This document shows, piece by piece, positions 7,966 through 21,009 of a stretch of 64,000 nt of DNA. The stretch is taken from IMG/VR virus record IMGVR_UViG_3300043172_001414; one strand, given 5' to 3'. Made by a program: the position numbers and the translations under genes. A model generated the notes under the pieces. That model searched no databases and was not told where the DNA came from. It worked only from the letters and a program-made list of their open reading frames with translations. Numbering within the stretch: the stretch's first letter is position 1; each line of letters starts with the position of its first letter. This DNA is from a virus (taxonomy: Duplodnaviria; Heunggongvirae; Uroviricota; Caudoviricetes).

Positions 7966-8538
7966 ATGAGCGCATCTAACAAATCAGAAAACGCAATCGC
8001 CTCCCAAGAAAAAAAAGCAAAAAAAGACCCTACGATGAAATATATTGTAGACTGGAATGGTAAGTTTCGTATAATTAAAAAAGTTGGCAAAACTCAAGAT
8101 TATTTTGGTACAATGGAAACAATCGAAGAAGCTAAAACGAGAAGAGATGCAGTTGTTCTCATGGCTGATCAAGGCTATAGCGCACAAGAGATCAAGGCTC
8201 AGTTTGCTATAGGTTCGGATTACAGCAAGCCTGTATACAGCATGCCTAAAGGTGAAGGACGTTTCGATCTTAGCAAATTCATGGCGTTATACGAGCTTAC
8301 AAAAGGTTCTGATAGCTTCACCAAAGAGCATAAAGAGTTAATTAATTCAGTAATGCGTAAAAAGATTGAATCTGATAAGCTTGCTAAAGAGATTGAAGAA
8401 ACCCCTAGTAGCATTGTCGCTGTTATGGAAGATATTAGTCGTGCTGATGAACATGACACAATGAAGGCTAATATTGCAAAGCTTGAAAAAGAAAACAGGT
8501 CTTTAAAGAAAAGTCGGGCTCAAAAGGCTGTTGCTTAA
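7966..8538 (+). CDS. AP2-like DNA-binding domain plus coiled-coil protein (paralog 2)
   Basis: MKYIVDWNGKFRIIKKVGKTQDYFGTMETIEEAKTRRD matches the AP2/MBD-like pattern. Confidence 0.6.
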   Translation: MSASNKSENAIASQEKKAKKDPTMKYIVDWNGKFRIIKKVGKTQDYFGTMETIEEAKTRRDAVVLMADQGYSAQEIKAQFAIGSDYSKPVYSMPKGEGRFDLSKFMALYELTKGSDSFTKEHKELINSVMRKKIESDKLAKEIEETPSSIVAVMEDISRADEHDTMKANIAKLEKENRSLKKSRAQKAVA

Positions 8539-8555
8539 TAGCAACAACCCTATTG

Positions 8556-8607
8556 AAAAACCCCTGCCCTGTTGACTTAACTATTGATAAATGGCAGGGG
8601 TTTTTTT
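8556..8607. terminator. bidirectional terminator between convergent genes
   Basis: AAAAACCCCTGCC (8556-8568) / GGCAGGGGTTTTT (8593-8605), 24-nt loop. Confidence 0.75.
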
Positions 8608-8679: not shown

Positions 8680-9024
8680 TTAGACAGCTAAAGCAGTCTC
8701 TGAAAATGTTGACACATATAAAGATTCCCAGTCATACATGTCTACATGGCAAGACACGGCTTCTTCCTTTACCAATTCAAACTCGCATTTGTTTCTCATT
8801 GAGTAATTCACCAAGTCACGAATGTTTTTGTCTCTATCCCTTGAATACAAGATTGCAAAGCTCTTGTTAGTTAATATTTCCTCTACAATACCGTCAAATA
8901 CTGCATGTGTAGTGAACTCCATATCGTCAGATTTATATCTGACATAATTATATAAGCGCTCATCAACGTCCGTGTCAGTTATATCTGCCACTCTTAATAC
9001 GGTTTTATGTACTTTAGTTATCAA
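8680..9024 (-). CDS. small paralog family member 1 (IC..A..(H/Y)SR..KLK family, divergent)
   Basis: IVEEILTNKSFAILYSRDRDKNIRDLVNYSMRNK. Confidence 0.7.
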   Translation of the reverse strand: MITKVHKTVLRVADITDTDVDERLYNYVRYKSDDMEFTTHAVFDGIVEEILTNKSFAILYSRDRDKNIRDLVNYSMRNKCEFELVKEEAVSCHVDMYDWESLYVSTFSETALAV

Positions 9025-9121
9025 AATCTTACTCCGTTTTTATCTGTTATTAAAAAAGTATAACACAATTAATATTTTTTAGTTATATTTAATGTGGGAA
9101 CGCAAATAAAAAGGAAATAAC

Positions 9122-9391
9122 ATGGCGACTTTGTACAATACAAATGGTGAAGTTACTTCAGTTGAAATTGGTGAAGATCATCTGAAATCATACTACGATT
9201 TGATAGGTTGTGAGATGGTGGAAGCGATCACTATTGACGAAGACACAGTTCTTCTGGTTGATGAAGAGAGTAGATTAAAACAAGACCAACAAATCAATCT
9301 GAGGGCTACTGAATATGTTAGGAAATATTTTAACATGGATTGTATAATAGGGAATGCTCTGTTAGTTACTGTTCCTGATGAGTTTAATTGA
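9122..9391 (+). CDS. DUF3846-like protein
   Basis: YYDLIGCEMVEAI...LLVDEESRLK...INLRAT...IIGNALLV. Confidence 0.7.
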   Translation: MATLYNTNGEVTSVEIGEDHLKSYYDLIGCEMVEAITIDEDTVLLVDEESRLKQDQQINLRATEYVRKYFNMDCIIGNALLVTVPDEFN

Positions 9392-9681
9392 TGTGTATTA
9401 ATGATCATCCTAATCTGCAACTATCATTAATCGTGATATTGATAGTTGCATTATTCTGCGCTGTTGCGTGCGAAGGTTTCGATTCAAAAAAAGAACGTGA
9501 AAGAGCTGAGGAAAGACTTATTAATCAAATAGAGCACTATAGCAAAACAGCTTGTATAGACGGTGTTACATATGTTTATAGTGCTGGTGTCCACATATTT
9601 TCTTTATCTGCAAAGTTTGGTACAGACAGCAAGATCATACAGTGCAAGCCTAAATCTCAATATCCTATTGCTTATGAATAA
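9388..9681 (+). CDS. membrane-anchored/exported small protein
   Basis: hydrophobic N-terminus; CIDGVTYVY...KIIQC. Confidence 0.7.
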   Translation: MMCINDHPNLQLSLIVILIVALFCAVACEGFDSKKERERAEERLINQIEHYSKTACIDGVTYVYSAGVHIFSLSAKFGTDSKIIQCKPKSQYPIAYE

Positions 9682-10219
9682 AGAAGAAATACTAGCCATC
9701 GTAAAAGAAGAACTGGCAGCCGAAGAAGTTTATTACAAGTGCGGCAATCCACATTGTATTTCTTCCAGTGCTTTCATAATTCCAATTAAATTTCACGACA
9801 AAATGGTTTGTAAGGATTGTGGTGGTTCAGCATGGGAAGCTAGAAAGAAACGGTCTGATGAAATCATAGCTGAAGCAATAGCGGACAAGGTAAAAGACGA
9901 GTGGATATTCGTTGATGATCAACTACCAGAAATTCAAGAAGGTAGATTTGGTACATATGTTTTGGCTATTGATTATGATCCTTGTTGGACTGGTACTATG
10001 TTAAACAGGCCCAGCGTACATCAAGAGTTTTTTCGTAAAAAAGACGGGTTTAAAATGACTAGTGCGTATGGTTTCGAAAAAGATGGAAAACTCACTGAAA
10101 ATCGTATAGAGCGATGCGACCCGATCATTTTGTGGAAGCCGATGCCTAAGTCACCTAGTGCAGAAGAGATTATTAAATTGTTGCAAGACAGGAAGTGGAT
10201 AGGGGAAGAGGAGTCATGA
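9674..10219 (+). CDS. Zn-ribbon plus DUF551-like protein
   Basis: CGNPHC/CKDC; WIFVDDQLPE...ILWKPMPKSP; ATG at 9674. Confidence 0.65.
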   Translation: MNKEEILAIVKEELAAEEVYYKCGNPHCISSSAFIIPIKFHDKMVCKDCGGSAWEARKKRSDEIIAEAIADKVKDEWIFVDDQLPEIQEGRFGTYVLAIDYDPCWTGTMLNRPSVHQEFFRKKDGFKMTSAYGFEKDGKLTENRIERCDPIILWKPMPKSPSAEEIIKLLQDRKWIGEEES

Positions 10220-10563
10220 AAATAATTAATGCTTCTATAAAAGTTGCTGAGCGTGACAGACGGTCTGGACGAATGATTGGTTTAGATGGATGTGTAATAG
10301 AATTTCATTCAGAAGATACTTTAAAGCAAAATGACAAATTAAAAATGTGCTATGAAAAAGAAGTGCATTATTTTTCTGTTAATGAAATAGAAATAGCTGA
10401 TAACAACAAGCTTCTCATACGAGCTTCCGAAGTTGGTTATTGGGCAAGGGCATTTAGAAGAAAAGAAGGGTTCGATATACGAAAGTTACTTAATATCGAA
10501 GTAGAAGTAGTTACAGATAAAGAAACATTAAGTAAAATAAGTTTAGAATCGTGTTGGTGTTAA
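10216..10563 (+). CDS. hypothetical protein
   Basis: ATGA overlap with upstream stop; GAGGAG RBS. Confidence 0.7.
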   Translation: MKIINASIKVAERDRRSGRMIGLDGCVIEFHSEDTLKQNDKLKMCYEKEVHYFSVNEIEIADNNKLLIRASEVGYWARAFRRKEGFDIRKLLNIEVEVVTDKETLSKISLESCWC

Positions 10564-10574
10564 AGGAGTAAAGT

Positions 10575-10796
10575 ATGGATACAAGAACAGGAATGATTGA
10601 GCAATTCAGCAAAGAAGAAATGAAAGGGTTAGACCCTGAGCGTTATGAACGAGTGCATAGAGAGCAGATGACAGCAAAACAGGAAGAGTTAATGCAAGTC
10701 AGCAAGCATGACAACCGATCAGAGCTAGGTAAGATATTTACTGGCAAAAGAAAGAATCGAGAGAAAAGAGAAAGACGTAAAAGACGTGGCAAGTAA
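10575..10796 (+). CDS. small protein with basic C-terminus
   Basis: AAGGAG RBS; KRKNREKRERRKRRGK. Confidence 0.7.
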   Translation: MDTRTGMIEQFSKEEMKGLDPERYERVHREQMTAKQEELMQVSKHDNRSELGKIFTGKRKNREKRERRKRRGK

Positions 10797-10808
10797 TTGG
10801 TGTGACTG

Positions 10809-11156
10809 ATGATAGGGTATTTAAAATATATGTTTGATGTTAATAAAGAAGAGAGTGACAAACTTAAAAAATATTCTATTATTTTTGCATTTATAGGTTT
10901 AATTTTGTGGGGTCTTATTTTATATTCAGTAGAATCTCCTTTAAGTGTCAAAAATAGGACAGTCGATAATGTAAATGGTGAACATACTCATCATGGGTTA
11001 ATGCATGTTCATGTTGAGAAACAACAAAATACCATTATAGTTTGTAAAAATAAAGTTAATTATTACCTATACAAGTCTTATGGAAGAGAAAATTTTATCG
11101 TCATGACAGACTTGCGTGGGCGTGTTAAACATTGTAAAGAAGAGCCTCAACACTGA
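10809..11156 (+). CDS. membrane-anchored small protein
   Basis: TM segment YSIIFAFIGLILWGLILYSV; CKNKVNYY...GRVKHC. Confidence 0.7.
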   Translation: MIGYLKYMFDVNKEESDKLKKYSIIFAFIGLILWGLILYSVESPLSVKNRTVDNVNGEHTHHGLMHVHVEKQQNTIIVCKNKVNYYLYKSYGRENFIVMTDLRGRVKHCKEEPQH

Positions 11157-11210
11157 CCTCTTACCCTCGGTCAGTGTAAGGGAGAGGGTGTCACTCGCAT
11201 CCTCTCCCTT
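11150..11210. terminator. two back-to-back hairpins at a convergent gene junction
   Basis: ACACTGACC/GGTCAGTGT (11150-11177) and AAGGGAGAGGGTG/CATCCTCTCCCTT (11178-11210). Confidence 0.6.
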
Positions 11211-11442
11211 AATAAAATATCTTAATCATCTCTTTATGCTTAAGCTTAATCACACAAAATTTTCTTATCTGTTCACTATCATCTCTTGAATGTATCAAGG
11301 CTGCAGCATTGTTTTTACATATCGAAATTATCTTAGGTATGTCTGATTTGATTACTTGAAACTGAAGTTTATTTGCAAATTTATCCCCATCGTATTTAAC
11401 CAGTTTAAACAAAACTGAATTGACAAGAATAGTAACGAACAT
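11209..11442 (-). CDS. small paralog family member 2
   Basis: ISICKNNAAALIHSRDDSEQIRKFCVIKLKHK. Confidence 0.75.
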   Translation of the reverse strand: MFVTILVNSVLFKLVKYDGDKFANKLQFQVIKSDIPKIISICKNNAAALIHSRDDSEQIRKFCVIKLKHKEMIKIFY

Positions 11443-11444
11443 TC

Positions 11445-11825
11445 TTAATTCATGAGTCTGTTTTTTTGAGTTTGTAATACTATCTTTTCCTTAATAGGAA
11501 TACACGACCTGTACTTCAGTTTGTACCAAGCCAGCTTCCTTATAAACTTTTCTTCATGTTGCATGTTGATTATTGCGATTGCATTGTTGGAGCATATATC
11601 TGTGACAAGCTCAAAGAATTCTTCGCTGTAGGTGTGACGAAAGAAGCCCCATTTATAACCAGTATCGTTAGTTATAAATGAGGCTTTTAATCTGTTATCG
11701 AAATTTTTTGAGTTGTATACGTCTGTAATTTTACCCTTAAGAAAATACTCTACTGATCGTGTTTCAGTATAAATTTTTTGTATCTTAACAAGACAGACTT
11801 GGGTTATAGGATTTCTCATCACCAT
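11445..11825 (-). CDS. small paralog family member 3
   Basis: TDICSNNAIAIINMQHEEKFIRKLAWYKLKYR. Confidence 0.75.
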   Translation of the reverse strand: MVMRNPITQVCLVKIQKIYTETRSVEYFLKGKITDVYNSKNFDNRLKASFITNDTGYKWGFFRHTYSEEFFELVTDICSNNAIAIINMQHEEKFIRKLAWYKLKYRSCIPIKEKIVLQTQKNRLMN

Positions 11826-12105
11826 ATACTAATTTAATCTTACGATTCTTTAGTCTCCATTCACACAACCTACAAATGTATTTATTATTATTGCGGATGT
11901 TTAATATAGACGAAATCAAGTTGCCAGATTCCATTATATCTTGTGCTAATTCTATTTCATCGTGGTGGTAAAATGTGAATCTATCAAGACCTTCATTAAT
12001 ATCATAGTATAAAATACCAACGGAACCATTTAAGGTTCCATCGACATTTTCTGGTTCTATCTTATTCCCATGGTCGTCGAATCCGTATTTTACGACCGTT
12101 TTCAT
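11785..12105 (-). CDS. small paralog family member 4
   Basis: QDIMESGNLISSILNIRNNNKYICRLCEWRLKNR. Confidence 0.7.
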   Translation of the reverse strand: MKTVVKYGFDDHGNKIEPENVDGTLNGSVGILYYDINEGLDRFTFYHHDEIELAQDIMESGNLISSILNIRNNNKYICRLCEWRLKNRKIKLVYGDEKSYNPSLSC

Positions 12106-12635
12106 TATGCTATTTCTTGACCGACGAACTTCTTTACACCTTGTGCGAAGTCTAATTCAAGATGATACACATCGATATTTTGCTTATACTTTCTTTTGAA
12201 GTCAGCAAGCTCTTGAATTTTTTTGTTGTCATCTTTAAGTCTAACGATAGCGTGATAGTTCTCACGGCATATCAACTCGACACGGCCAGCTTTATTATCT
12301 CTGATAAGCTCTACAGTCTCTTGTGATTCCATGGTGGTAAACATTCTCCAAATCTCTTTGTCATGATTGAATAGAACATAAACCATGTTGTACACATCGT
12401 TATTCATGTTGAATTCTTCTACAGGCTGAACTAGATTTGGTTTGTTTTCACCAAAGTTTTGATTGAATTGTCTAGGCGTTACCATATAGCGTAACATAGT
12501 AAGCTTGGGTGCTTTTTTAGAAGTTGTATCCTCTTCTTTACCTAGCTGCTTCAGGTCTTTATTAATGTAATCGTCAATCCCGAATGTTTTTTTTTTGCTC
12601 ATAATTATATTTCCTTTCAATGAATATAGGTTCAC
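12105..12635 (-). CDS. hypothetical protein
   Basis: 176-aa ORF; real start probably at MSKKK (12602). Confidence 0.75.
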   Translation of the reverse strand: MNLYSLKGNIIMSKKKTFGIDDYINKDLKQLGKEEDTTSKKAPKLTMLRYMVTPRQFNQNFGENKPNLVQPVEEFNMNNDVYNMVYVLFNHDKEIWRMFTTMESQETVELIRDNKAGRVELICRENYHAIVRLKDDNKKIQELADFKRKYKQNIDVYHLELDFAQGVKKFVGQEIA

Positions 12636-12870
12636 TGTGTTTTAGCTTTATTTTACACAACTCGTTTATATCGTTACTCAAATATTTAAACTCTTTAGAT
12701 TCGAACTTCGAATACAGAAGAGCTAAACTATTAGATGTACATACGCTGTATACAATCGTATTTATTCTTTGCATCTTTTCTGGTTTTAGAGACAAATACC
12801 AGCTAGACCTATCATCTAGTTGATATGTTGTTAGAAAGTCATAATGATTAATTTTCATAATCATGACCAT
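12574..12870 (-). CDS. small paralog family member 5
   Basis: SVCTSNSLALLYSKF...INELCKIKLKHS. Confidence 0.7.
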   Translation of the reverse strand: MVMIMKINHYDFLTTYQLDDRSSWYLSLKPEKMQRINTIVYSVCTSNSLALLYSKFESKEFKYLSNDINELCKIKLKHSEPIFIERKYNYEQKKNIRD

Positions 12871-12887
12871 GTCTCCCGAAAAAATTG

Positions 12888-13289
12888 TTACTCTAAGCTT
12901 AAGTAAGCCTCGAACTTTTTTGAGTTGACCCGTCTCTTTATGGTAGACGTTTTCAAGTTCAATTTGTCGGATGCTTCTCTATAAGAAGTGTACTCAATTC
13001 CTTCGATGGACAAGACAAGAAGTTTTTGTTCGCCTGTTATGTCCTTCACTAACACATCAACTAAAGTCTCAACTAAAGTATCTGTAACTATTTCTTTTAC
13101 TACGAATAACTCTGGGTAGTGAGTCTTCATAATATTTGTTATCTTAACTTTTGAACGTGTATTGTTCTTAGTTAAGGTAACGTCCGGCCCTGTGAGTTCT
13201 GCTTGAGTTTTACTGTGAACTACTCTGCCAGTATTTGATATTTTATAAATTCCTTCAAACCCTTTTATATCTTTCCAGATTATTTTCAT
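12888..13289 (-). CDS. NUMOD4 plus NUMOD1/IENR1-type HTH protein lacking a nuclease domain
   Basis: WKDIKGFEGIYKISNTGRV (NUMOD4); EGIEYTSYREASDKLNLKTSTIKRR; no HNH residues between them. Confidence 0.75.
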   Translation of the reverse strand: MKIIWKDIKGFEGIYKISNTGRVVHSKTQAELTGPDVTLTKNNTRSKVKITNIMKTHYPELFVVKEIVTDTLVETLVDVLVKDITGEQKLLVLSIEGIEYTSYREASDKLNLKTSTIKRRVNSKKFEAYLSLE

Positions 13290-13321
13290 CTTGTCTCCTA
13301 GATATATGGTGTTTATGAAAT

Positions 13322-13329
13322 TATTTATA
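13322..13329 (-). promoter_or_regulatory. T4-type late promoter
   Basis: TATAAATA on minus strand just upstream of 12888-13289. Confidence 0.55.
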
Positions 13330-13843
13330 AATTGTCGAGTAGATCGTCTACAGATTGAGATATATCATCGTCTGAAGCGGTATTTACTCCTTTTTCGTCC
13401 TCTTCCTCTTTTTTTGGTTCAATAGTGTCTGAATCTTCATTCTCATCATCGTCTACTTCAGTTAGCCAGTCTGGGGTATCATCGTCATTTTCAACACCGC
13501 CCTCCATCTTGACTACCATGTTCTGCAAGTCAGATGGTGACATCTCGCCAGATTCAAGTTTTTTATAGATGTCATCCATTTGTTTTACTACATTAGGGTC
13601 TGATTCGAGTTCCATGATATTCTTAATCCCTATAGTTAATTTGTTTAGTTCTTTAATTAATAATCTCTTTGTGGAGTTTAGACGTTGACATTCTTCAGAC
13701 TTAAAGTGGGTATTTGGTATCTGTACTAATTCTACTTCAACTGCATTTAATTTTCCTTTCATCTCTATACGTCTGTCTTCCATCTCTTTTCTTAGTAGTG
13801 AGGGTTTGCTCATGTTGCTCCTAGTGCTCGAATAAAGCCTCAT
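13325..13843 (-). CDS. coiled-coil protein with acidic C-terminal tail
   Basis: ORF track; D/E-rich last third. Confidence 0.75.
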   Translation of the reverse strand: MRLYSSTRSNMSKPSLLRKEMEDRRIEMKGKLNAVEVELVQIPNTHFKSEECQRLNSTKRLLIKELNKLTIGIKNIMELESDPNVVKQMDDIYKKLESGEMSPSDLQNMVVKMEGGVENDDDTPDWLTEVDDDENEDSDTIEPKKEEEDEKGVNTASDDDISQSVDDLLDNL

Positions 13844-14309
13844 GTTTTAGGTTCTTAACTACTTTAGTTACATATCCACACACAAACTTATATATGGTTT
13901 TATCGTGGGGCGAGTCTTGACAGCCGTCTACGTGCAAGGTCTCTATGTCATTTTTCTGGATAAATTTCTCAACGATTCTTACGTCCAAAGGGCTATCAAG
14001 GTCTATCAGTAGTGATGGTGTGTTTGACGCTTCAACGATGTCCATTAACTCTTTATCGAGTTGGTCTACCAGGCTCTCCATAAAGAAAAATATTGTGCCG
14101 TCTGATGCGTTCATGTTATCTTCAAAACACTCTACAACCGAGTCTGACTCATGCTCTTTGAGTCCCATTGATGCGAGTTCTGGTTGCTTGCCTGTTGGCA
14201 AGATAAATCCTTTTGGACAATATCCATCTACAGCTATCTCATTAATAAATGCTGCTCCTACAGCTCCTTGGCTTGCGCCTCGAAGTCCTGTACTAATTAT
14301 TGTTTTCAT
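13821..14309 (-). CDS. putative molybdenum-carrier (SLOG superfamily)-like protein, degenerate
   Basis: IISTGLRGAS, GYCPKG, NMNASDGTIFF, TLHVDGCQDS align with IISGGQTGVD, GWCPKG, NVxDSDGT, LNVAGPRES; GGAGGT RBS. Confidence 0.7.
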   Translation of the reverse strand: MKTIISTGLRGASQGAVGAAFINEIAVDGYCPKGFILPTGKQPELASMGLKEHESDSVVECFEDNMNASDGTIFFFMESLVDQLDKELMDIVEASNTPSLLIDLDSPLDVRIVEKFIQKNDIETLHVDGCQDSPHDKTIYKFVCGYVTKVVKNLKHEALFEH

Positions 14310-14325
14310 ATTTACCTCCGTAAAA

Positions 14326-15348
14326 TTACGAATTGGGGTATACTTTAATTATGTTATACGAAATTTTAATGTCGTAAGGTATGTTCTTACGAAGAATTGC
14401 TCCTTTCCAATTGTTATCGGAAATTGTTGTTTTCATGTGTGATAGTATGTGTTCACCGTTTGGATCATACTGCTGGTATGGTACGACTTGTATCATACTT
14501 AAATTAGAGAAACCCATCTCTGCGAATCTCTTATGTCGATCTGTGTATTTTTTTGACTCGTCGTAATACACCTCGAACTCATCGAGGGTTAGTATGTCAT
14601 ACACTTTAAATATTATATTAGTTAACTTCTTACTGCCTCTAACGATGCTCTGGTGAGACTCATCAAAGCTCTGGTTGCCTATGAATACATGACCTTCAAT
14701 CATGATATTATCAATATCAGTAATGTCGATAAATGACTGTACTTCATCCTTAAGGTAATTCAATGTGACAATAGGTATGGTGTGCTTGCTATATATGTTC
14801 ACCTTTCGGTTTCTAATGCTCATGTAGACCAGTTCGCCCTCAACCTTCTCCATTGTAACGTACTCAGAAAAGACCCTCTTAGGACACATCGTATCCCAAA
14901 TTTTGGGTCGTGTAGGGTTAAACATTGGTATAAGTTTCGGATAGATACAATTGATAAGCTGAGCATCTATTCCACACTTCAAGTTCTTATTGAAAATGTT
15001 GATAATAAGGGTCTCATATTCGGGAAATATTGTACACCATCTCTTTATCGCTTTGATTCCTACAGAACGACTGTATCTTTTGTTAAGCAACGAATCGTTT
15101 AAAAAATTGTAGAAGTGATGGATCATGATGTACGGCTTATCTATTTTCGGAATATCAACTAAAGTAGATTCTAACTCTTTATCTATCTGTTTTGTACCAA
15201 CTGCGAAGTGCTTAAAAGGATTATAGGTTATCTCCAATAAATTTCTACATTGAGGATATTTCTCTATAATGTCTAGCTTGTCTATTGACAATTCAACTGC
15301 TTTCAACTGGCGAATCATGTACAGTAAGTCATCTACTATTTTTATCAT
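14326..15348 (-). CDS. ATP-dependent DNA ligase-like protein (T4 gp30 type), degenerate and lacking OB domain
   Basis: N-terminal DBD with NLKCGI; motifs EKVEGEL, IEGHV, YDIL, KGAILR, IIKVY. Confidence 0.75.
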   Translation of the reverse strand: MIKIVDDLLYMIRQLKAVELSIDKLDIIEKYPQCRNLLEITYNPFKHFAVGTKQIDKELESTLVDIPKIDKPYIMIHHFYNFLNDSLLNKRYSRSVGIKAIKRWCTIFPEYETLIINIFNKNLKCGIDAQLINCIYPKLIPMFNPTRPKIWDTMCPKRVFSEYVTMEKVEGELVYMSIRNRKVNIYSKHTIPIVTLNYLKDEVQSFIDITDIDNIMIEGHVFIGNQSFDESHQSIVRGSKKLTNIIFKVYDILTLDEFEVYYDESKKYTDRHKRFAEMGFSNLSMIQVVPYQQYDPNGEHILSHMKTTISDNNWKGAILRKNIPYDIKISYNIIKVYPNS

Positions 15349-15545
15349 TGATTCATTTCGATATCGTGTTTCGGATCTAAAGGTTCATCTGAAGGGTACG
15401 GGCTGTTATTGCAATTGATTACCATTTTACCGCATGTAGGGCATTTCCAACTGTCTCCTGAGTAACAGTGGTTTCCACCATAGCGGACAACAACACCATT
15501 TTTCTCAACTTTCATCTCTGTGTGACACTCAACACAAATAATCAT
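15345..15545 (-). CDS. zinc-ribbon protein
   Basis: CVEC...CPTC. Confidence 0.75.
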   Translation of the reverse strand: MIICVECHTEMKVEKNGVVVRYGGNHCYSGDSWKCPTCGKMVINCNNSPYPSDEPLDPKHDIEMNQ

Positions 15546-15580
15546 ATTAACTCCAATCTTAGTACATATATTATATAATA

Positions 15581-15609
15581 AGTATAGTAAATATAATTAT
15601 TAATTTCAA
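15581..15609 (-). promoter_or_regulatory. leftward sigma70 promoter
   Basis: TTGAAA-N17-TATACT on minus strand. Confidence 0.7.
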
Positions 15610-15621
15610 TAAAAAAATACA

Positions 15622-15649
15622 TTGACAATAACTTTTATTTTGTTATTTT
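15622..15649 (+). promoter_or_regulatory. rightward sigma70 promoter
   Basis: TTGACA-N16-TATTTT in the divergent intergenic region. Confidence 0.5.
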
Positions 15650-15681
15650 ATTACATATACGCCACTTTTGTGAAATAACTT

Positions 15682-15963
15682 ATGAAAATAGAAATTACTA
15701 AAAAAGAAGCACAGTTAATAATCGGTGCTTTAGCTTTTACTTCTTGTACTGATGTATGTGAAGATACAAAAATGGATGATAAGTATAAAATGATTGCTTT
15801 AGCTAATGTCTTGAAGGAAGTAACTAAAGTGGATAAAGTTCCTGACTTTTATCTTACTCAACAGCGTGAGTTTGTTGGTGATGGGGTATTTTATTGCGAT
15901 GATCTTCATATGATCGACAAGGTAAAACAGGTTATAGAAATATTCAACAAAGACGAGGAATAA
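15682..15963 (+). CDS. hypothetical protein
   Basis: ORF track. Confidence 0.7.
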   Translation: MKIEITKKEAQLIIGALAFTSCTDVCEDTKMDDKYKMIALANVLKEVTKVDKVPDFYLTQQREFVGDGVFYCDDLHMIDKVKQVIEIFNKDEE

Positions 15964-15964
15964 T

Positions 15965-16372
15965 ATGTCCCAATGGACTCATGTAAATGCATCAATTAGA
16001 TATGACGGAATACCTGCCCTAGGTATACCCATCATAACAGAAAAAGAACTAGGTGAAATATCTACATGGGAGAATGATGTAGAAGACACTATACTGCCGT
16101 GTGGTAGTGAAGGTAGCCTGGAATACAAGCTTATCAAGACAGGTACTGAGAACGCTCTTGCATGTCGTGCGGTTATCTTCTATGGTGATCTCAGAGACTA
16201 TAGTGATGTTGATGAGATACTTGCGTATTTCGAATCAATCACTAGCGGTAAAATGATACGTAGTGGTATACTTGAGATTGCAGTTGAGTATCAAGATGTT
16301 ATGATATACAGATTCAATACATCCGACAAAAAATGGGAATTCGTTGATGAAGTCACTGAGAAGGAGCATTAA
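15965..16372 (+). CDS. conserved phage hypothetical protein
   Basis: MSQWTHV start; PCGSEGSL and GDLRD motifs. Confidence 0.7.
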   Translation: MSQWTHVNASIRYDGIPALGIPIITEKELGEISTWENDVEDTILPCGSEGSLEYKLIKTGTENALACRAVIFYGDLRDYSDVDEILAYFESITSGKMIRSGILEIAVEYQDVMIYRFNTSDKKWEFVDEVTEKEH

Positions 16373-16608
16373 TGGATACACCAAAAGTACCAGAAAAATC
16401 ATACTTTAAATTGTATGAAAAACATCTATCCATGACTAAAGTATCAGAGATAGATGTTACTATAAGCGACGAAACTATAGATCATATCATGACTGTATGT
16501 GATGGTTATAGTGTATCATTTGATGCCGTTGTCGGTGGTATGCTTCAGCTGTATATTGACAGTCAGGAAGATCAAACTAAAGTAGTAAAAGAGAGCGTGG
16601 AAGAATAA
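16372..16608 (+). CDS. possible ribbon-helix-helix protein
   Basis: IDVTISDETIDHIMTVCDGYSVSFDAVVGGMLQLYI has a beta-alpha-alpha pattern. Confidence 0.4.
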   Translation: MDTPKVPEKSYFKLYEKHLSMTKVSEIDVTISDETIDHIMTVCDGYSVSFDAVVGGMLQLYIDSQEDQTKVVKESVEE

Positions 16609-16636
16609 TAATCACTGGGTTGGAGAGGTCAATGGA

Positions 16637-16861
16637 TTGGATGTAAAAAAGTTAACCGACTATGACTTGTGTTATAAGATCGGCCAGATTGGGTTAAATG
16701 ATGCATTACGCACAATAACCGAAGATGATATTGAGAATTCTAGAACTGCGGACTATTGGAAAGTAGCTAGGATGGATAAAAATAGAGACAGTGAGTCTAG
16801 TCCAACGTATAGCATGGAAGAGGCGGTAAACATAATAAACTCTTATGAGGGTGAAACATGA
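16637..16861 (+). CDS. hypothetical protein
   Basis: ORF track. Confidence 0.6.
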   Translation: MDVKKLTDYDLCYKIGQIGLNDALRTITEDDIENSRTADYWKVARMDKNRDSESSPTYSMEEAVNIINSYEGET

Positions 16862-17316
16862 CAGAACGGTATTTTACACTAAGCGAATCATCTAAGATGC
16901 TTTCAGCGTGTTATAACTTAATACACACTCGTGTTAAGATGAACTTTGTGCTTATTGATAAGCGTGGTAACAGCTTTGGCATACAACAACGTATTACTAA
17001 AAATAAATGTGAAAACATTAAGCGTGAAAAAGTACGTGATAGTTCCCCCATGCATTACACACTTGAGGAGAATCACGAGGCAGCATACCTAGACCAGACG
17101 TTAATGGATTTGAAGTACACTGAAACAATATTGAAGCAATACCCTCAGCATTCATTAATTATATTTGATGACGGTCTTCGGCTATACAAGATTTATGATA
17201 ATAACTACCACAAGGTAGACATGTTGTTTTCTAATGTAACTGAAGTAACCGATAACATTAAATACTCTCTTGAGTATCTAGCAACTAAAAAATCTAAGGA
17301 GGCTGAAAATGGCTAA
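16858..17316 (+). CDS. hypothetical protein
   Basis: ORF track; GAGG RBS. Confidence 0.7.
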   Translation: MTERYFTLSESSKMLSACYNLIHTRVKMNFVLIDKRGNSFGIQQRITKNKCENIKREKVRDSSPMHYTLEENHEAAYLDQTLMDLKYTETILKQYPQHSLIIFDDGLRLYKIYDNNYHKVDMLFSNVTEVTDNIKYSLEYLATKKSKEAENG

Positions 17317-17791
17317 TCTTGATGATAGAAAAATTAATTTAAGATGGCTGCTAAGCCATCCTCGTGATTCAAAAGATGGGGTTCATTTTAACTTGTTGGT
17401 TGGCAACTACAAATACATGATGTTGAATGACAATCTTGTGCGGTACGATGCTAAAACTTATGAGGATAGGTCTAAGCAACGTTGGTATGGGTCGTCGTCT
17501 TCTTTCCATTATACATTTATGTTTAGTGCTGATGACTTAACTGCGGTTTCTGAGATATGTACGTCCACTAACATGGCTCTTATCCACAGACATAAATCTG
17601 ATGAAGTGAACCTATTCTCGAAGATTAAACTAAAGTTTTTCCCAAAACACGTTATACCATTTGATGTTAAAATTAAGCATAACTACCTAGTTGATAGTTA
17701 CGAAGACCTTATATCATCTATTAACATGTTCAGAGATCAGGGTGAAGAAAAAGACATTGACAAATTTTTTAACTACAAGAAGGGTAAATGA
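17309..17791 (+). CDS. small paralog family member 6
   Basis: MANLDDRKINL...LLVGNYKY...SEICTSTNMALIHRHKSDEVNLFSKIKLKFF. Confidence 0.8.
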   Translation: MANLDDRKINLRWLLSHPRDSKDGVHFNLLVGNYKYMMLNDNLVRYDAKTYEDRSKQRWYGSSSSFHYTFMFSADDLTAVSEICTSTNMALIHRHKSDEVNLFSKIKLKFFPKHVIPFDVKIKHNYLVDSYEDLISSINMFRDQGEEKDIDKFFNYKKGK

Positions 17792-18276
17792 AGTATATTA
17801 AAGGAGACCTCGTAAAAGATGCACTTCAGTTTGATGCTATTACACATGGCTGTAACTGCTTCTGTAACATGGGGTCTGGTATTGCGCCACAGATTAAAGA
17901 AAGTTTCCCTGAAGCCTGGGAAAAGGATAAAGCAACTATTAAGGGTGATAGAAGTAAGTTGGGTACGATTACATACACTATGAAAACTAAGCCAACAGTT
18001 ATAAACTCTTACACACAGTTTGGTTGTAACAGGCAAAACATAAACATTGACTACGATGCTGTTCGTGGTGCAATGAGATGTATTAAAAAGTTGTTCTCTG
18101 GCAAGAAGATTGGCATGCCTAAAATAGGTGCTGGTCTTGCAAGAGGTGACTGGGAAATTATAGAACTAATTATTAATGAAGAACTAGGAGGAGAAGATGT
18201 TACCGTTGTCATATGGGACAAGAATGCCACACTGGTTGAAGCAGAAACATTACTTGGAGGAAAAACTAATGACTAA
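17788..18276 (+). CDS. macrodomain ADP-ribosyl hydrolase (Appr-1-p processing; T4 Tk.4-like)
   Basis: KGDL, HGCNCFCNMGSGIA, INSYTQ, MPKIGAGLARGDW. Confidence 0.9.
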   Translation: MKYIKGDLVKDALQFDAITHGCNCFCNMGSGIAPQIKESFPEAWEKDKATIKGDRSKLGTITYTMKTKPTVINSYTQFGCNRQNINIDYDAVRGAMRCIKKLFSGKKIGMPKIGAGLARGDWEIIELIINEELGGEDVTVVIWDKNATLVEAETLLGGKTND

Positions 18277-18751
18277 GCCTAACAATTTTCATTTCTTTTA
18301 CGGTGGCCCTTTTAGCCAGTGGTTCAAATCAGAATTTGTCGTTGATGGAGTTACATACTTAACTGCAGAGCAATACATGATGGCAGGTAAGGCACGGGTC
18401 TTTAATGATGACGAACGACTCGCTATGATACTCGAAGCTAAAAATCCATGGGATCAAAAAATGCATGGTCGTATGGTTGAAGGCTTTAATGATGCTGAGT
18501 GGAATAAGCACCGCATTAAAATTGTTATCGATGCGAACATAGCTAAGTTCGGTCAGAACGAGCAACTAAAAAAGTATATGTTTGATACTGGTGATAAAGA
18601 ACTTGTTGAAGCTTCCCCTGTTGATAAGATTTGGGGTATCGGTTTGGATGAGCATGACCCGAAAAGATTTGACCGGAAAAACTGGAAGGGAAAAAATCTA
18701 TTGGGTATATGTCTGATGGATGTTCGTAAAAAGTTTATGGATGAAAAGTAA
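18269..18751 (+). CDS. NADAR (YbiA-like) family hydrolase
   Basis: GPFSQWF, AEQYMMAGKA, LVEASPVDKIWGIG, GKNLLGICLM; ATG at 18269. Confidence 0.92.
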   Translation: MTKPNNFHFFYGGPFSQWFKSEFVVDGVTYLTAEQYMMAGKARVFNDDERLAMILEAKNPWDQKMHGRMVEGFNDAEWNKHRIKIVIDANIAKFGQNEQLKKYMFDTGDKELVEASPVDKIWGIGLDEHDPKRFDRKNWKGKNLLGICLMDVRKKFMDEK

Positions 18752-19446
18752 TGAGGATCTATTCCAAGTTTACTGATTACTACGACTCCGTCTTGAACAT
18801 GTTTCAAGACGAGGTTGTGCCAGTGTATGAACGTAAAACTGAAATAATTGAAAATGCTCTACATAAGTTGGAAATATTCACATGGGATGATCACTGTATA
18901 TATTGGGATGATTGGAATAAATCCAATACTATTCATGAGATTGAAGCTATCGGTTTTGCCGGAGTGATATATCCTTATGTGAAAGTAGTGTCTTCAAATT
19001 ATCATACTAAAGATCGGTATATATTTGATTCTGATGAAATGGATATATTCTTTGCTGAATACTCAAAGGAGGGTAGGCGACATCATATTAGAGATAATTA
19101 TTCATATAAAAATGCATATGAGAAGATGCGCAATAATAAGTTTCTTCAATCATTATTTTTAAAATATAAAGTGCCTATCTTTAGGGTAATTCATGATCAT
19201 TATTGGCGTGATTCCAAATATGGATTAGAAGTTAATCCTGAGTTGAAACCTTTAGATTTCGTTAGAGTTCTAGATCCATATACTGCAATGCAAGAGCTGC
19301 ATATGTATCTTAATAATGAGTTGGCGTTGGAGTCACAAGGGACAGTTCCTGTTGGATCTGATGAAGTCATACGAGATTCTAAGGGGTTCTATGATTACTC
19401 TTTTAAAACGTTACCTGGCGGCAAAAAACGGAGGAAAAACAAATGA
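18751..19446 (+). CDS. conserved phage hypothetical protein
   Basis: SKFTDYYD start; DPYTAMQELHMYL and KGFYDYSFK motifs. Confidence 0.75.
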   Translation: MRIYSKFTDYYDSVLNMFQDEVVPVYERKTEIIENALHKLEIFTWDDHCIYWDDWNKSNTIHEIEAIGFAGVIYPYVKVVSSNYHTKDRYIFDSDEMDIFFAEYSKEGRRHHIRDNYSYKNAYEKMRNNKFLQSLFLKYKVPIFRVIHDHYWRDSKYGLEVNPELKPLDFVRVLDPYTAMQELHMYLNNELALESQGTVPVGSDEVIRDSKGFYDYSFKTLPGGKKRRKNK

Positions 19447-19742
19447 GTGAAGAAATTACTGGTGGTTGTAACGAATGTGATTCTTATGAATGTTGCAATG
19501 ACAGATTTGTAAATCATAAACTTGTATATGATAGAGTGTGTAAAGATGGTAATGATAGAATGTTAGAGATATGGTGGGATGAAAATGGCATTCGTAAATC
19601 AGACGAAGAAAAAACTAAAATGGGTTGTTTTAAGCCTACCAAAGGTCGAGAGCTTTTGCAGCAAATGCATGAAACGTTAGATGATTTGAAAAAGCTTTAT
19701 CCACACCGAATAAAAATGTATGACAAAGAAAAAGATAGTTAA
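19443..19742 (+). CDS. Cys-containing hypothetical protein
   Basis: GCNECDSYECC. Confidence 0.65.
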   Translation: MSEEITGGCNECDSYECCNDRFVNHKLVYDRVCKDGNDRMLEIWWDENGIRKSDEEKTKMGCFKPTKGRELLQQMHETLDDLKKLYPHRIKMYDKEKDS

Positions 19743-20070
19743 ACTTAAGTTTTTACACGATAACGGCATCAATGTATTTCATGACAATCACTACTTCAGA
19801 TTATTAATAGATAACGTATTATATGATTACCATAAAGGAAATGTAACTCGTCGTCCATCTATGACTGTTCATGACAATCAATGGTCTGTAAGAAGGTCTC
19901 ATACATTTTCATTCTCAGAGGCTAAGTTAGATATAGTTAAAAAGATTTGTGAGCACTCACGATATGCTGTTCTTCATTCACGAGATAATGATAATAAGAT
20001 AGTGGATTTCTGTGAGTGCAAACTAAAGTGTTTTCCCAATACGGAGATAATATTTGATGGCAAAGCTTGA
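19720..20070 (+). CDS. small paralog family member 7
   Basis: KKICEHSRYAVLHSRDNDNKIVDFCECKLKCF. Confidence 0.8.
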   Translation: MTKKKIVKLKFLHDNGINVFHDNHYFRLLIDNVLYDYHKGNVTRRPSMTVHDNQWSVRRSHTFSFSEAKLDIVKKICEHSRYAVLHSRDNDNKIVDFCECKLKCFPNTEIIFDGKA

Positions 20071-20440
20071 TAAAAGAAAAGTACGGGTACATCGTTTACA
20101 TGGGTATGCGTATAGAGGTAACATATACTCTAGGATGACATACTACAGTTTACGTATCGGCAATTATAGTTATGTTTTAACTGATAAATATGAGCTGGTA
20201 AAGCTTAGTGGAATTAGAGTAAGTAAAGGGTTGTTATATAATCCTGTGCGTGCTACGTATGGGTGTACGCCTTATTGGTTTGCTTTTGAGATACATTTAG
20301 ATAAGGTTAAAATGGCAGAAGAGATATTGAAGGATAGGAACAAGGCTATGCTGCTATCAAGAGAAGAAGGTCTCGAAGCGATTTGTGCAATCAAACTAAA
20401 GTATTTTGCAGATAAAGAAGTAGAATTTAAAACCTGGTAA
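20057..20440 (+). CDS. small paralog family member 8
   Basis: MAKLDKRKV...LRIGNYSY...EEILKDRNKAMLLSREEGLEAICAIKLKYF. Confidence 0.8.
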   Translation: MAKLDKRKVRVHRLHGYAYRGNIYSRMTYYSLRIGNYSYVLTDKYELVKLSGIRVSKGLLYNPVRATYGCTPYWFAFEIHLDKVKMAEEILKDRNKAMLLSREEGLEAICAIKLKYFADKEVEFKTW

Positions 20441-20443
20441 TGT

Positions 20444-20869
20444 ATGGCAAAGTTAGATAAAAGAAAAGTAGTGCTCAAATACTTATACGGAAATATATTT
20501 AACACTCATTTTGAAGGTAAACCGTCTGGTTATAGTAATAGTAGTATGAACTTTAGTTTGTTGATTGGTAATTATAAGTATGGGTTGACTGATAAAATTA
20601 CTTTAGTTAGATCAGGTGAAGATGGTGATAGGCATGCGTGGGCGTTGCGTTATAGTGGAGACTATTACTATACACTTGGTATACCTCAAAATCAATTGAG
20701 TAAGCTGAAGGATATTTGTAGTAGCAAGGGATGTGCGTTGAATTACTCTCGTATTGACGGCCTTGAAGAAATATGCCAACTAAAACTAAAGTATTTCTCT
20801 GAAAAAGAAATACATATTAATTTTACACGTTGGAAAGAATGGGATACTTGGACAGGAGATAAAAAATAA
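20444..20869 (+). CDS. small paralog family member 9
   Basis: MAKLDKRKV...LLIGNYKY...KDICSSKGCALNYSRIDGLEEICQLKLKYF. Confidence 0.8.
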   Translation: MAKLDKRKVVLKYLYGNIFNTHFEGKPSGYSNSSMNFSLLIGNYKYGLTDKITLVRSGEDGDRHAWALRYSGDYYYTLGIPQNQLSKLKDICSSKGCALNYSRIDGLEEICQLKLKYFSEKEIHINFTRWKEWDTWTGDKK

Positions 20870-21009
20870 TGTGTATAATCACAAACGAAAATCACATAGT
20901 GATTTCCATAAGTTTAATACCTGGCATTCATTACATACCAGATAATTTTCATGTCTATTGGCCGTGGGATAAAGAAATACCATCTGAAGGTGATTACTTT
21001 AATCCTTAG
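20869..21009 (+). CDS. 46-aa hypothetical (not in ORF track)
   Basis: TAATG overlap with upstream stop; MCIITNENHIVISISLIPGIHYIPDNFHVYWPWDKEIPSEGDYFNP. Confidence 0.45.
   Translation: MCIITNENHIVISISLIPGIHYIPDNFHVYWPWDKEIPSEGDYFNP

What the first reader, a model, noticed from the sequence alone, without database searches (positions are those of the whole stretch)
8680..20869. Nine dispersed, highly diverged paralogs sharing one C-terminal motif
Seen: ORFs 8680-9024, 11209-11442, 11445-11825, 11785-12105 and 12574-12870 (minus) and 17309-17791, 19720-20070, 20057-20440 and 20444-20869 (plus) all end in a shared motif. It reads approximately (E/D)I(C/L)x4-5A(L/I)(L/I)(H/Y)SRx6-8(L/F)Cx2KLK(Y/H/F), e.g. 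KKICEHSRYAVLHSRDNDNKIVDFCECKLKCF and KDICSSKGCALNYSRIDGLEEICQLKLKYF. Three also share MA(K/N)LD(K/D)RK...L(I/V)GNYxY, while the middles vary. They sit on both strands in tandem runs, so they expanded by repeated duplication and inversion. I recognise no named family. Inference: a diversifying arsenal of host-interacting proteins (constant scaffold, variable surface), such as anti-defence inhibitors tuned to different targets.
Basis: partly seen in the sequence, partly recalled or inferred. Interest (0 to 1): 0.8.

Follow-up and report, generated by a model that had tools for sequence, protein, structure and literature searches.

The report
Fifteen-copy orphan small-protein family, T4-like phage
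An uncultured T4-like phage carries 15 very diverged copies of one small, uncatalogued protein that share a conserved helical C-terminal half; the family is real, old and so far found only in uncultured phages, but its function is untested.

Summary
All nine ORFs pass leave-one-out profile tests (E 1e-13 to 8e-5 among 1,009 genome ORFs; best shuffled ORF 0.04). A tenth member lies at 12105-12602. Five more lie elsewhere in the 212-kb genome, three with an N-terminal zinc ribbon.

About 57 relatives exist among 1.84 billion metagenomic protein representatives. Four tblastn queries found none in 50,697 deposited phage genomes. No Pfam, PHROG, NCBIfam or PADLOC model covers the shared module.

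Two AlphaFold models (pLDDT 88 and 82) give one architecture: variable beta-strands, three conserved helices, a closing strand. No structural relative was found (best Z 4.2).

In a tree, each paralog's nearest relative lies in another phage. The duplications are therefore ancient, not a recent burst. Two distant phage contigs also carry at least five copies each.

The conserved half has an almost invariant Ala and a basic third helix, while the N-terminal halves range from very acidic to very basic. It weakly resembles one DUF4116 repeat unit; membership is unproven.

My best reading is early accessory binder proteins with a shared handle and paralog-specific heads. The function is inferred only, and the anti-defence idea is neither supported nor excluded.

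The parts
8680..9024 (-). Family member, 114 aa (TTG start); most divergent copy (K-L-K replaced by S-M-R-N-K). Shared module at 8767-8934. Stand-alone minus-strand gene between plus-strand genes.
   Evidence: Leave-one-out E 6e-9; module domain E 1e-13
11209..11442 (-). Minimal family member, 77 aa; module at 11212-11352.
   Evidence: Leave-one-out E 1e-13. AlphaFold model pLDDT 82.5: three strands, three helices, closing strand
11445..11825 (-). Family member, 126 aa; module at 11487-11627. Has a 62%-identical ortholog (P0013) in another phage.
11785..12105 (-). Family member, 106 aa; module at 11821-11967. Overlaps the next gene by 41 nt.
   Evidence: Leave-one-out E 8e-5; module E 2e-12
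12105..12602 (-). Module at 12162-12302.
   Evidence: Leave-one-out E 2.7e-6; ortholog P0044 at 39% over 152 aa; tree pair 100/100
12574..12870 (-). Family member, 98 aa, with a 7-residue insert in the loop between helices 2 and 3. Module at 12613-12777.
   Evidence: Leave-one-out E 6e-6; ortholog P0060 at 62%
17309..17791 (+). Family member, 160 aa, 'MAxLDxRK' subfamily, with a C-terminal extension. Module at 17525-17662. Its stop overlaps the start of the Macro-domain gene.
19720..20070 (+). Family member, 116 aa, same subfamily; module at 19915-20055. This is the protein that was modelled.
   Evidence: Leave-one-out E 5e-13; AlphaFold pLDDT 87.8, pTM 0.81
20057..20440 (+). Family member, 127 aa, 'MAKLDKRK' subfamily; module at 20294-20428.
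20444..20869 (+). Family member, 141 aa, 'MAKLDKRK' subfamily; module at 20684-20818.
15622..15649 (+). Sigma70-like promoter match (TTGACA-16-TATTTT with a TG) heading the plus-strand unit 15682-20869, which holds four members plus the Macro and NADAR genes. Consensus match only.
15581..15609 (-). Sigma70-like promoter match (TTGAAA-17-TATACT) heading the minus-strand unit 15545-11209, which holds five members. Consensus match only.
11157..11208 (.). G+C-rich inverted repeat in the gap between the convergent plus-strand and minus-strand units; a likely two-way terminator.
   Evidence: Sequence read; inference
8561..8607 (.). Hairpin (CCCCTGCC ... GGCAGGGG) flanked by T runs on both strands, downstream of member 8680-9024 and of the plus-strand gene 7966-8538; a likely two-way terminator.
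   Evidence: Sequence read; inference
9057..9065 (-). Extended -10-like element (TGTTATACT on the minus strand) about 33 nt upstream of the TTG start of member 8680-9024.
   Evidence: Sequence read; inference

Best explanation
This is a genuine, old multigene family of small (77-176 aa) cytoplasmic proteins, so far seen only in uncultured phages. It has 15 copies in this T4-like phage, 10 of them in the window. Each copy is one compact alpha/beta domain. A variable N-terminal part (a beta-meander, or a zinc ribbon in three copies) packs against a conserved C-terminal module of about 45 residues: helix 1 (..I-x-x-I-C), a short helix 2 around an almost invariant Ala (A-L-L-N/H), a polar loop (R/K-H/N/D-E/D), a basic helix 3 (I-R-x-L-C-x-x-K-L-K-Y) and a closing strand. 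Shown: the family, its size, its age, the predicted architecture, and the absence of any catalogued relative. Inferred: the genes are early accessory genes read from host-type promoters. Also inferred: the conserved module is both the fold core and a shared, positively charged 'handle' for one common kind of partner, while the paralog-specific N-terminal 'heads' give each copy a different target. On this reading the family is a kit of binder or inhibitor proteins aimed at host or phage macromolecules (host takeover, possibly counter-defence). The stated confidence refers to this inferred mechanism; that the family is real I put at about 0.97.
For: Family is real: leave-one-out E 1e-13 to 1e-4 for all 15, with shuffled and non-member ORFs at 6e-4 or worse. 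Real genes under selection: 10 of the 15 copies pair, as resolved two-row forks in the tree, with a protein of another phage, and eight of these have a full-length match at 37-62% identity. No two own copies are sisters (15 label changes, 8 forced by well-supported branches). Multi-copy is a family trait: contigs L033 and L034 belong to phages whose AAA_5 and DUF2201 genes are only 40-50% identical to this phage's, and each holds at least 5 members in 20 kb, some in tandem. L007 holds two in tandem. One architecture: two models (pLDDT 87.8 and 82.5) have the same order of elements, and the module has pLDDT above 90. Shared handle rather than core only: conserved positions include exposed-type polar and basic residues (N/H86, R/K88, H/N/D89, R95, K101, K103, Y104 in the numbering of 19720-20070). 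The loop plus helix 3 has a median net charge of +3 (48 of 73 members at +2 or more). N-terminal parts range from -11 to +11, and whole proteins from pI below 6 (20 of 73) to above 8 (39 of 73). The module combines with different partner domains: zinc ribbon, beta-meander, and an L7/L12-CTD-like tail in four relatives. Early/accessory context: sigma70-like promoters head both units. Neighbours are Macro, NADAR, cpYpsA and DUF3846 genes and homing-endonuclease remnants. Out-of-window copies sit between replication genes, as T4 accessory ORFs do.
Against: There is no expression, binding or phenotype datum for any member. The promoter matches are no more frequent than in shuffled sequence (51 found, 57 expected), so 'early' is weakly based. 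No similarity to any known anti-defence, host-takeover or defence protein was found. Conserved polar residues could serve folding (helix caps) rather than binding. Long-term one-to-one retention of each paralog is not what a fast arms race usually leaves behind. The models rest on only 73 sequences, and no coordinates were available to check which conserved residues are exposed.
Confidence: 0.4

Rival explanations
1. Small nucleic-acid-binding regulators. The basic helix 3 and loop would bind DNA or RNA, and the variable heads would set sequence or structure specificity (transcription, translation or RNA-processing control).
For: The loop plus helix 3 is consistently basic (median +3). 10 of the 15 own copies have pI of 8.8 or more. 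Three copies carry zinc ribbons and four relatives carry an L7/L12-CTD-like segment. The module has three helices.
Against: 20 of 73 members are acidic overall (pI below 6). The helix 2 - loop - helix 3 spacing and residues do not fit the classical helix-turn-helix pattern (my reading). No DNA- or RNA-binding fold appeared in any fold search. No Rfam RNA lies in the region.
Confidence: 0.2
2. The conserved module is only the folding core of a versatile mini-domain. There is no shared ligand, and the paralogs have unrelated functions carried by their variable parts.
For: The strongest conservation is at hydrophobic or small positions (I76, C77, A83, L85, I94, L97, C98, L102, I110). The two Cys positions are freely replaced by L/I/V/A/S without co-variation, as core positions are. 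The N-terminal parts differ greatly.
Against: Several polar and basic positions are also conserved across 73 very diverged sequences (N/H86, R/K88, H/N/D89, R95, K101, K103), which a pure core does not require.
Confidence: 0.2
3. Virion-associated or injected proteins, or assembly factors. The constant module would be a packaging or docking tag, by analogy with T4 internal proteins, which share a capsid-targeting sequence.
For: Constant tag plus variable body is the logic of T4-type internal proteins (established knowledge).
Against: The constant part is a folded C-terminal half, not a short N-terminal cleavable peptide, and N-termini differ between subfamilies. The genes lie among sigma70-type promoter matches. 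The only two TATAAATA words in the region occur at about the frequency I estimate from base composition.
Confidence: 0.05
4. The motif is a chance resemblance, or the ORFs are not real genes.
For: The individual pairwise matches are weak (many at E 1e-3 to 1).
Against: Leave-one-out profile significance holds for every member. There is a clean gap to non-members and shuffles. Orthologs exist in other phages, and the fold predictions are confident.
Confidence: 0.01

Closest known systems
Lineage-specific small-ORF families in the hyperplastic (accessory) regions of T4-type and jumbo phages (Arbiol et al. 2010, PMC2839356; Comeau et al. 2014, PMC4122927). An example of a T4 ORFan with a host target is 55.2, which inhibits topoisomerase I (PMC4396842).
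   Same: Small genes without known homologs sit between blocks of core genes. They lie behind host-type promoter matches and next to terminator hairpins and homing-endonuclease remnants, and are presumed to act on the host.
   Different: Here 15 of these ORFs are one family with a defined module, and each copy has been retained for a long time in diverged phages. This differs from the strain-to-strain swapping described for PeSL cassettes. I did not test for PeSL-type cassettes.
DUF4116 repeat (Pfam PF13475), a predicted alpha-solenoid of unknown function (PMC8078820)
   Same: The family profile hit one DUF4116 protein (P0026, E 4e-7, five repeats). The alignment register fits: I-C/L-A, N/N-G, the near-invariant Ala, K/R-D/H, then I-R-x-L-C/V-Q-x-L-A, with a 21-22-residue spacing between the two hydrophobic helices. 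The module HMM scores 53 of 120 DUF4116 proteins above 10 bits. None of the reversed, shuffled or repeat-preserving permuted versions does.
   Different: Each protein has a single unit packed on a beta-sheet, not a tandem solenoid. Only 1 of 73 members touches the Pfam model, at E 0.008, below its cut-off. The profile-profile comparison is weak (probability 8%, P 0.004). The DUF4116 set was chosen after the hit. Repeat proteins inflate such scores, as shown by a chitin-binding repeat protein (P0059) that also 'hit' at E 3e-4.
T4-type internal proteins (IPI, IPII, IPIII) with a shared capsid-targeting sequence; from established knowledge, not tested here
   Same: The logic is a constant tag plus variable bodies in a variable locus, and at least one member (IPI*) is an anti-restriction protein.
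   Different: The tag there is a roughly 10-residue N-terminal peptide removed by the prohead protease, and expression is late. Here the constant part is a 45-residue folded C-terminal module.
Other expanded small-protein families found by this scan in large phages (earlier notes e1-154137, e1-1852570, e1-1682173, e1-1858732)
   Same: Many diverged copies of one uncatalogued mini-domain with one invariant motif, in the early or accessory part of a large phage genome.
   Different: This is a different family with a different motif and far fewer copies (15, against 40-72). No sequence overlap with earlier windows was found.

Membership tests
DUF4116 (Pfam PF13475) | Match to the Pfam model at or above its gathering score | tested here: not met
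   1 of 73 members matches, at E 0.0083, below the cut-off; none of the window's ten does
DUF4116 (Pfam PF13475) | Tandem array of 22-25-residue helical units forming a solenoid | tested here: not met
   Each member has one module (helix, short helix, helix) attached to beta-strands. The module HMM finds one domain per protein
DUF4116 (Pfam PF13475) | Unit sequence pattern (hydrophobic helix, N-G-x-A-L, polar loop, next helix; near-invariant Ala) | tested here: inconclusive
   hhalign probability 8%, P 0.004, 23 columns in the expected register. The module HMM scores real DUF4116 proteins well above three kinds of control, but that set was picked post hoc
Classical helix-turn-helix DNA-binding domains | Helix 2 - tight turn (usually Gly) - recognition helix with the standard hydrophobic spacing; matches to HTH folds | tested here: inconclusive
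   The loop between helices 2 and 3 has 6 or more residues, and the positions expected to be Gly or hydrophobic are S/L and R/K. No HTH protein stands out in the fold searches, which does not exclude one
T4-type internal proteins (capsid-targeted) | Shared short N-terminal capsid-targeting sequence | tested here: not met
   N-termini differ between subfamilies; the shared part is C-terminal
Known anti-defence or defence-system protein families (PHROGs, Pfam, PADLOC) | Significant profile match to a catalogued family | tested here: not met
   No family is shared by more than 2 of 73 members in PHROGs. Pfam shows only the L12-like tail, in 4 members. PADLOC gives single weak hits only, and NCBIfam none
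Accessory ORF families of T4-type hyperplastic regions | Small ORFs between core-gene blocks, with host-type early promoters and terminators; absent from distant T4-like phages | tested here: met
   Positions and neighbours. Promoter and terminator matches are consensus only. Four tblastn queries found nothing in 50,697 phage records. The terminase is at most 38% identical to that of any cultured phage
Accessory ORF families of T4-type hyperplastic regions | Expression early in infection | not testable with these tools

The most novel reading that the evidence does not exclude
The conserved module is a single DUF4116-type helical unit that all paralogs use to dock onto one and the same hub, either a host machine such as the translation apparatus or a protease, or a phage machine. 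The 15 different heads would bring different clients or block different sites, making a phage-encoded 'adaptor kit'. The relatives that append the factor-binding helices of ribosomal protein L7/L12 hint at translation factors as one such hub.
Probability: 0.1. Interest if true: 0.7.

Novelty: new member of a known kind. Interest (0 to 1): 0.4.

Why it matters
Large phages devote many genes to small proteins of unknown function, and most of what phages do to their hosts in the first minutes of infection lies in that set. This work defines a clean, testable family. It gives a 45-residue signature, 15 paralogs in one genome, about 57 relatives elsewhere, and confident models without a known structural relative. 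It also reveals a natural experiment in which one handle carries many heads. If the handle has one partner, a single pull-down would assign a function to the whole family. The finding also gives DUF4116, a widespread repeat of unknown function, a possible single-unit relative that is easier to study. It is not a surprise in kind, because such expansions are common in large phages, and this one is small and old.

Tried and rejected
- Homodimer prediction for 19720-20070 with the 73-row alignment gave no verdict (score 0.00). It is not evidence either way.
- Fold searches with both models found nothing. PDB Foldseek gave E of 0.39 or worse; PDB VIA-wide gave best Z 3.1 and 4.2. AFDB clusters gave E of 0.27 or worse. 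BFVD gave best E 0.044 (TM 0.38/0.47), plus one 81-aa podovirus ORFan at TM 0.59 but E 0.89. The ESM Atlas gave TM of 0.49 or less. This does not prove that the fold is new.
- The profile search against PDB sequences found nothing.
- The ESM Atlas feature searches found nothing usable.
With the neighbouring 231-aa gene it found nothing in IMG/VR.
- A degenerate DNA pattern for the MAK[LI][DE]xRK start gave 23 IMG/VR hits. None encodes a family member.
- The word-indexed protein search returned only the window's own proteins.
- A near-identical strain contig (L032) has only 11 differences over 1,746 bp, too few for dN/dS. Paralogs are too diverged for dN/dS, and no DNA was available for the best ortholog contigs.
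- The linkage of a member directly downstream of DUF2201, seen in L033 and L034, does not hold in this genome.
- The late-promoter word TATAAATA occurs twice in the region, about the frequency I estimate from base composition.
- ORF G000 40089-40652 is a borderline hit (E 0.003-0.13) and is not counted as a member.
- The genome search does not draw relatives for a virus record.

Full report
SETTING. The window is the reverse strand of bases 101227-165226 of a 211,777-bp viral record. It has 35% G+C and is estimated 93% complete. It is a T4-like phage. Its large terminase matches thousands of T4-type phages, but at no more than 38% identity. The 13.5-kb region has no near-identical DNA in 50,697 deposited phage records. 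The phage is therefore a deep, uncultured branch.

OBSERVATION. The nine ORFs are present as described and the motif aligns in register. Single pairwise scores are weak to moderate, so I tested the family with profiles.
- A profile built from ten window ORFs was run against all 1,009 genome ORFs of 40 aa or more. It recovered three further ORFs at E 8e-9 to 2e-5, and two more after one iteration. The best of 5,045 shuffled ORFs reached only E 0.04.
- In leave-one-out tests every one of the 15 members was recovered, at E 1e-13 to 1.3e-4. The best non-member scored 6e-4 to 0.24.
- A six-frame scan with the wider profile gives the same 15, with a gap from E 2e-8 to 0.04.

The five outside the window lie between replication genes: primase, a SegE-like endonuclease, RNase H, ribonucleotide reductase and a metallophosphoesterase. 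Three of these begin with a CxxC...CxxC zinc ribbon.

THE FAMILY BEYOND THIS GENOME. A profile search of 1.84 billion representative proteins found 72 hits at E of 1e-3 or better. Thirteen are this genome's own or near-identical, and two are repeat proteins discussed below. About 57 are small proteins (55-237 aa) with the same module.
- No Pfam, PHROG, PADLOC or NCBIfam model covers the module, and no PDB sequence matches.
- Four tblastn queries found nothing in the deposited phage genomes.
- One contig from another sample is syntenic with the window: NUMOD4, cpYpsA, Macro, NADAR, a 238-aa gene, then small genes including relative P0015.
- Two more distant phage contigs each carry at least five members within 20 kb, including a run of four adjacent genes. 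Their AAA_5 and DUF2201 genes are only 40-50% identical to this phage's. A 1.4-kb contig carries two members in tandem.
Being multi-copy is therefore a property of the family, not of this genome.

AGE OF THE COPIES. Eight of the own copies have a full-length match of 37-62% identity in another phage. In a maximum-likelihood tree of 73 sequences, no two of the 15 own copies are sisters. Ten of them sit in a resolved two-row fork with a protein from another phage. The 'own genome' label needs 15 changes, 8 of them forced by well-supported branches. Many deeper forks are unresolved and branches are long, so only this coarse statement is safe. Neighbouring genes do fall into the same subfamily: the four plus-strand copies form one clade with 88/96 support, and the three zinc-ribbon copies are adjacent. 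The family thus grew by local duplication, but long ago.

ANATOMY. AlphaFold2 with the 73-row alignment gave two models.
- For 19720-20070 it gave a confident single domain (pLDDT 87.8, pTM 0.81): five strands, helices at 67-78, 80-85 and 92-104, and a closing strand at 110-113.
- For the minimal 77-aa copy it gave pLDDT 82.5, with above 90 over the module: three strands, three helices and a closing strand.

Column statistics over 73 sequences give the signature, in the numbering of 19720-20070. The positions are I76 (62 of 73), C77 (42), D/S/N79, N/K80, A83 (71 of 73), L/I84, L85, N/H/Y86, R/K88, H/N/D89, E/D90, I94, R95, L/F97, C98 (50), K101, L102, K103, Y/N104 and I110. The two Cys positions are replaced independently by aliphatic or small residues. 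I therefore read them as core positions, not as a metal site or a disulfide.

The loop plus helix 3 is basic (median +3). Helices 1-2 are slightly acidic. The N-terminal parts range from -11 to +11. No structural relative was found in any of five libraries with either model. The best Z was 4.2, below the level the tool gives as typical background. That does not prove a new fold, but nothing known explains it.

A POSSIBLE DISTANT RELATIVE. One hit of the profile search, P0026, is a DUF4116 repeat protein (Pfam E 3e-20) matched five times. The alignment register is sensible. The module HMM scores 53 of 120 DUF4116 proteins above 10 bits, against none of their reversed, shuffled or repeat-preserving permuted versions.

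I still treat this only as a lead, for four reasons:
- The DUF4116 set was gathered because of that hit.
- Repeat proteins add up small unit scores, and a chitin-binding repeat protein also 'hit' at E 3e-4.
- The direct profile-profile comparison is weak (probability 8%, P 0.004).
- Only one member touches the Pfam model, below its cut-off.
DUF4116 has no known function; it has been modelled as an alpha-solenoid (PMC8078820). Even a true link would say only 'helical protein-binding type unit'.

CONTEXT. Both gene units holding the window's members start at the divergent gap 15546-15681, which has sigma70-like matches on each strand. They end at hairpins (11157-11208; about 20885-20909). Member 8680-9024 is a stand-alone unit with an extended -10-like element and a two-way terminator hairpin. 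These are consensus matches and are no more frequent than in shuffles. Neighbours are accessory genes: DUF3846, a NUMOD4 protein, cpYpsA, Macro and NADAR. No Rfam RNA lies in the region.

INTERPRETATION. The following are shown: a real, old family found only in uncultured phage sequence so far; one architecture; a conserved module that combines with different N-terminal parts and, in four relatives, with an L7/L12-CTD-like tail. The rest is inferred. Conserved basic and polar positions on an otherwise structural module, together with heads of very different charge, fit 'one handle, many heads'. That means binder or inhibitor proteins made early, which is how many small T4 ORFans work (for example 55.2; PMC4396842). 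I give this 0.4. The rivals are nucleic-acid-binding regulators (0.2), a conserved core with no shared ligand (0.2), virion or assembly proteins (0.05) and chance (0.01).

LIMITS. The dimer test gave no verdict and dN/dS was not possible. Most relatives are on short contigs.

VERDICT. The family is undescribed. The kind of thing, an expanded orphan mini-protein family in a large phage, is well known and has been found repeatedly by this scan in other genomes, though not this family.

Noticed in passing
G000:C1 72396-73751 (locus L002:2397-3752, minus strand): Three adjacent family members carry an N-terminal CxxC...CxxC zinc ribbon in place of the beta-meander. Relatives P0018, P0032 and P0062 share this form (zf_CopZ-like, E 3.5e-4 for P0018).
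   Followed up: partly
Relatives P0037, P0051, P0055, P0056 (loci L006, L008): Four metagenomic family members end in a roughly 33-residue segment matching the two conserved helices of ribosomal protein L7/L12's C-terminal domain (best E 4e-5, below the Pfam cut-off). From memory, that is the part of L12 that contacts translation GTPases.
   Followed up: partly
L033:8558-10276 and L034:3102-6021; own genome G000:C1 25625-28160: In two distant relatives a family member directly follows the DUF2201 gene of an AAA_5 + DUF2201 (MoxR/VWA-like) pair. The window's genome has the pair but three unrelated small ORFs follow it.
   Followed up: yes
window, whole (e.g. 9010, 13071, 13860, 15157, 16575, 20394, 20599, 20784): The 10-mer TACTTTAGTT (one mismatch allowed) occurs 67 times on both strands, against 11 expected, inside genes as well as between them. 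It shows no relation to the family.
   Followed up: partly
L001:4663-7830 (G000:C1 54662-57829, minus strand): The 1,055-aa ribonucleotide reductase ORF shows a weak intein-splicing-domain match (E 6e-5, below the cut-off) inside the reductase, so it may carry an intein.
   Followed up: no
L001:9169-10016 (G000:C1 59168-60015): Family member 59590-60015 overlaps by 4 nt the start of a SegE-type GIY-YIG homing endonuclease gene (E 2e-39), between the primase and RNase H genes. In the window, a NUMOD4 protein (12888-13289) likewise abuts member 12574-12870.
   Followed up: no
L033:11007-13015: The distant relative contig carries two S-adenosylmethionine lyase (SAMase-type) genes close to its family members.
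   Followed up: no
window 17788-18751: The Macro-domain gene (E 5e-6) and the NADAR gene (E 4e-51) lie side by side directly after family member 17309-17791. The same order is kept in a syntenic contig from another sample.
   Followed up: partly
Protein P0059 (1,557 aa, metagenome): A chitin-binding (CBM_14 x14) repeat protein reached E 3e-4 against the family profile. This is a clear false positive and shows that repeat proteins inflate whole-sequence scores in such searches.
   Followed up: yes
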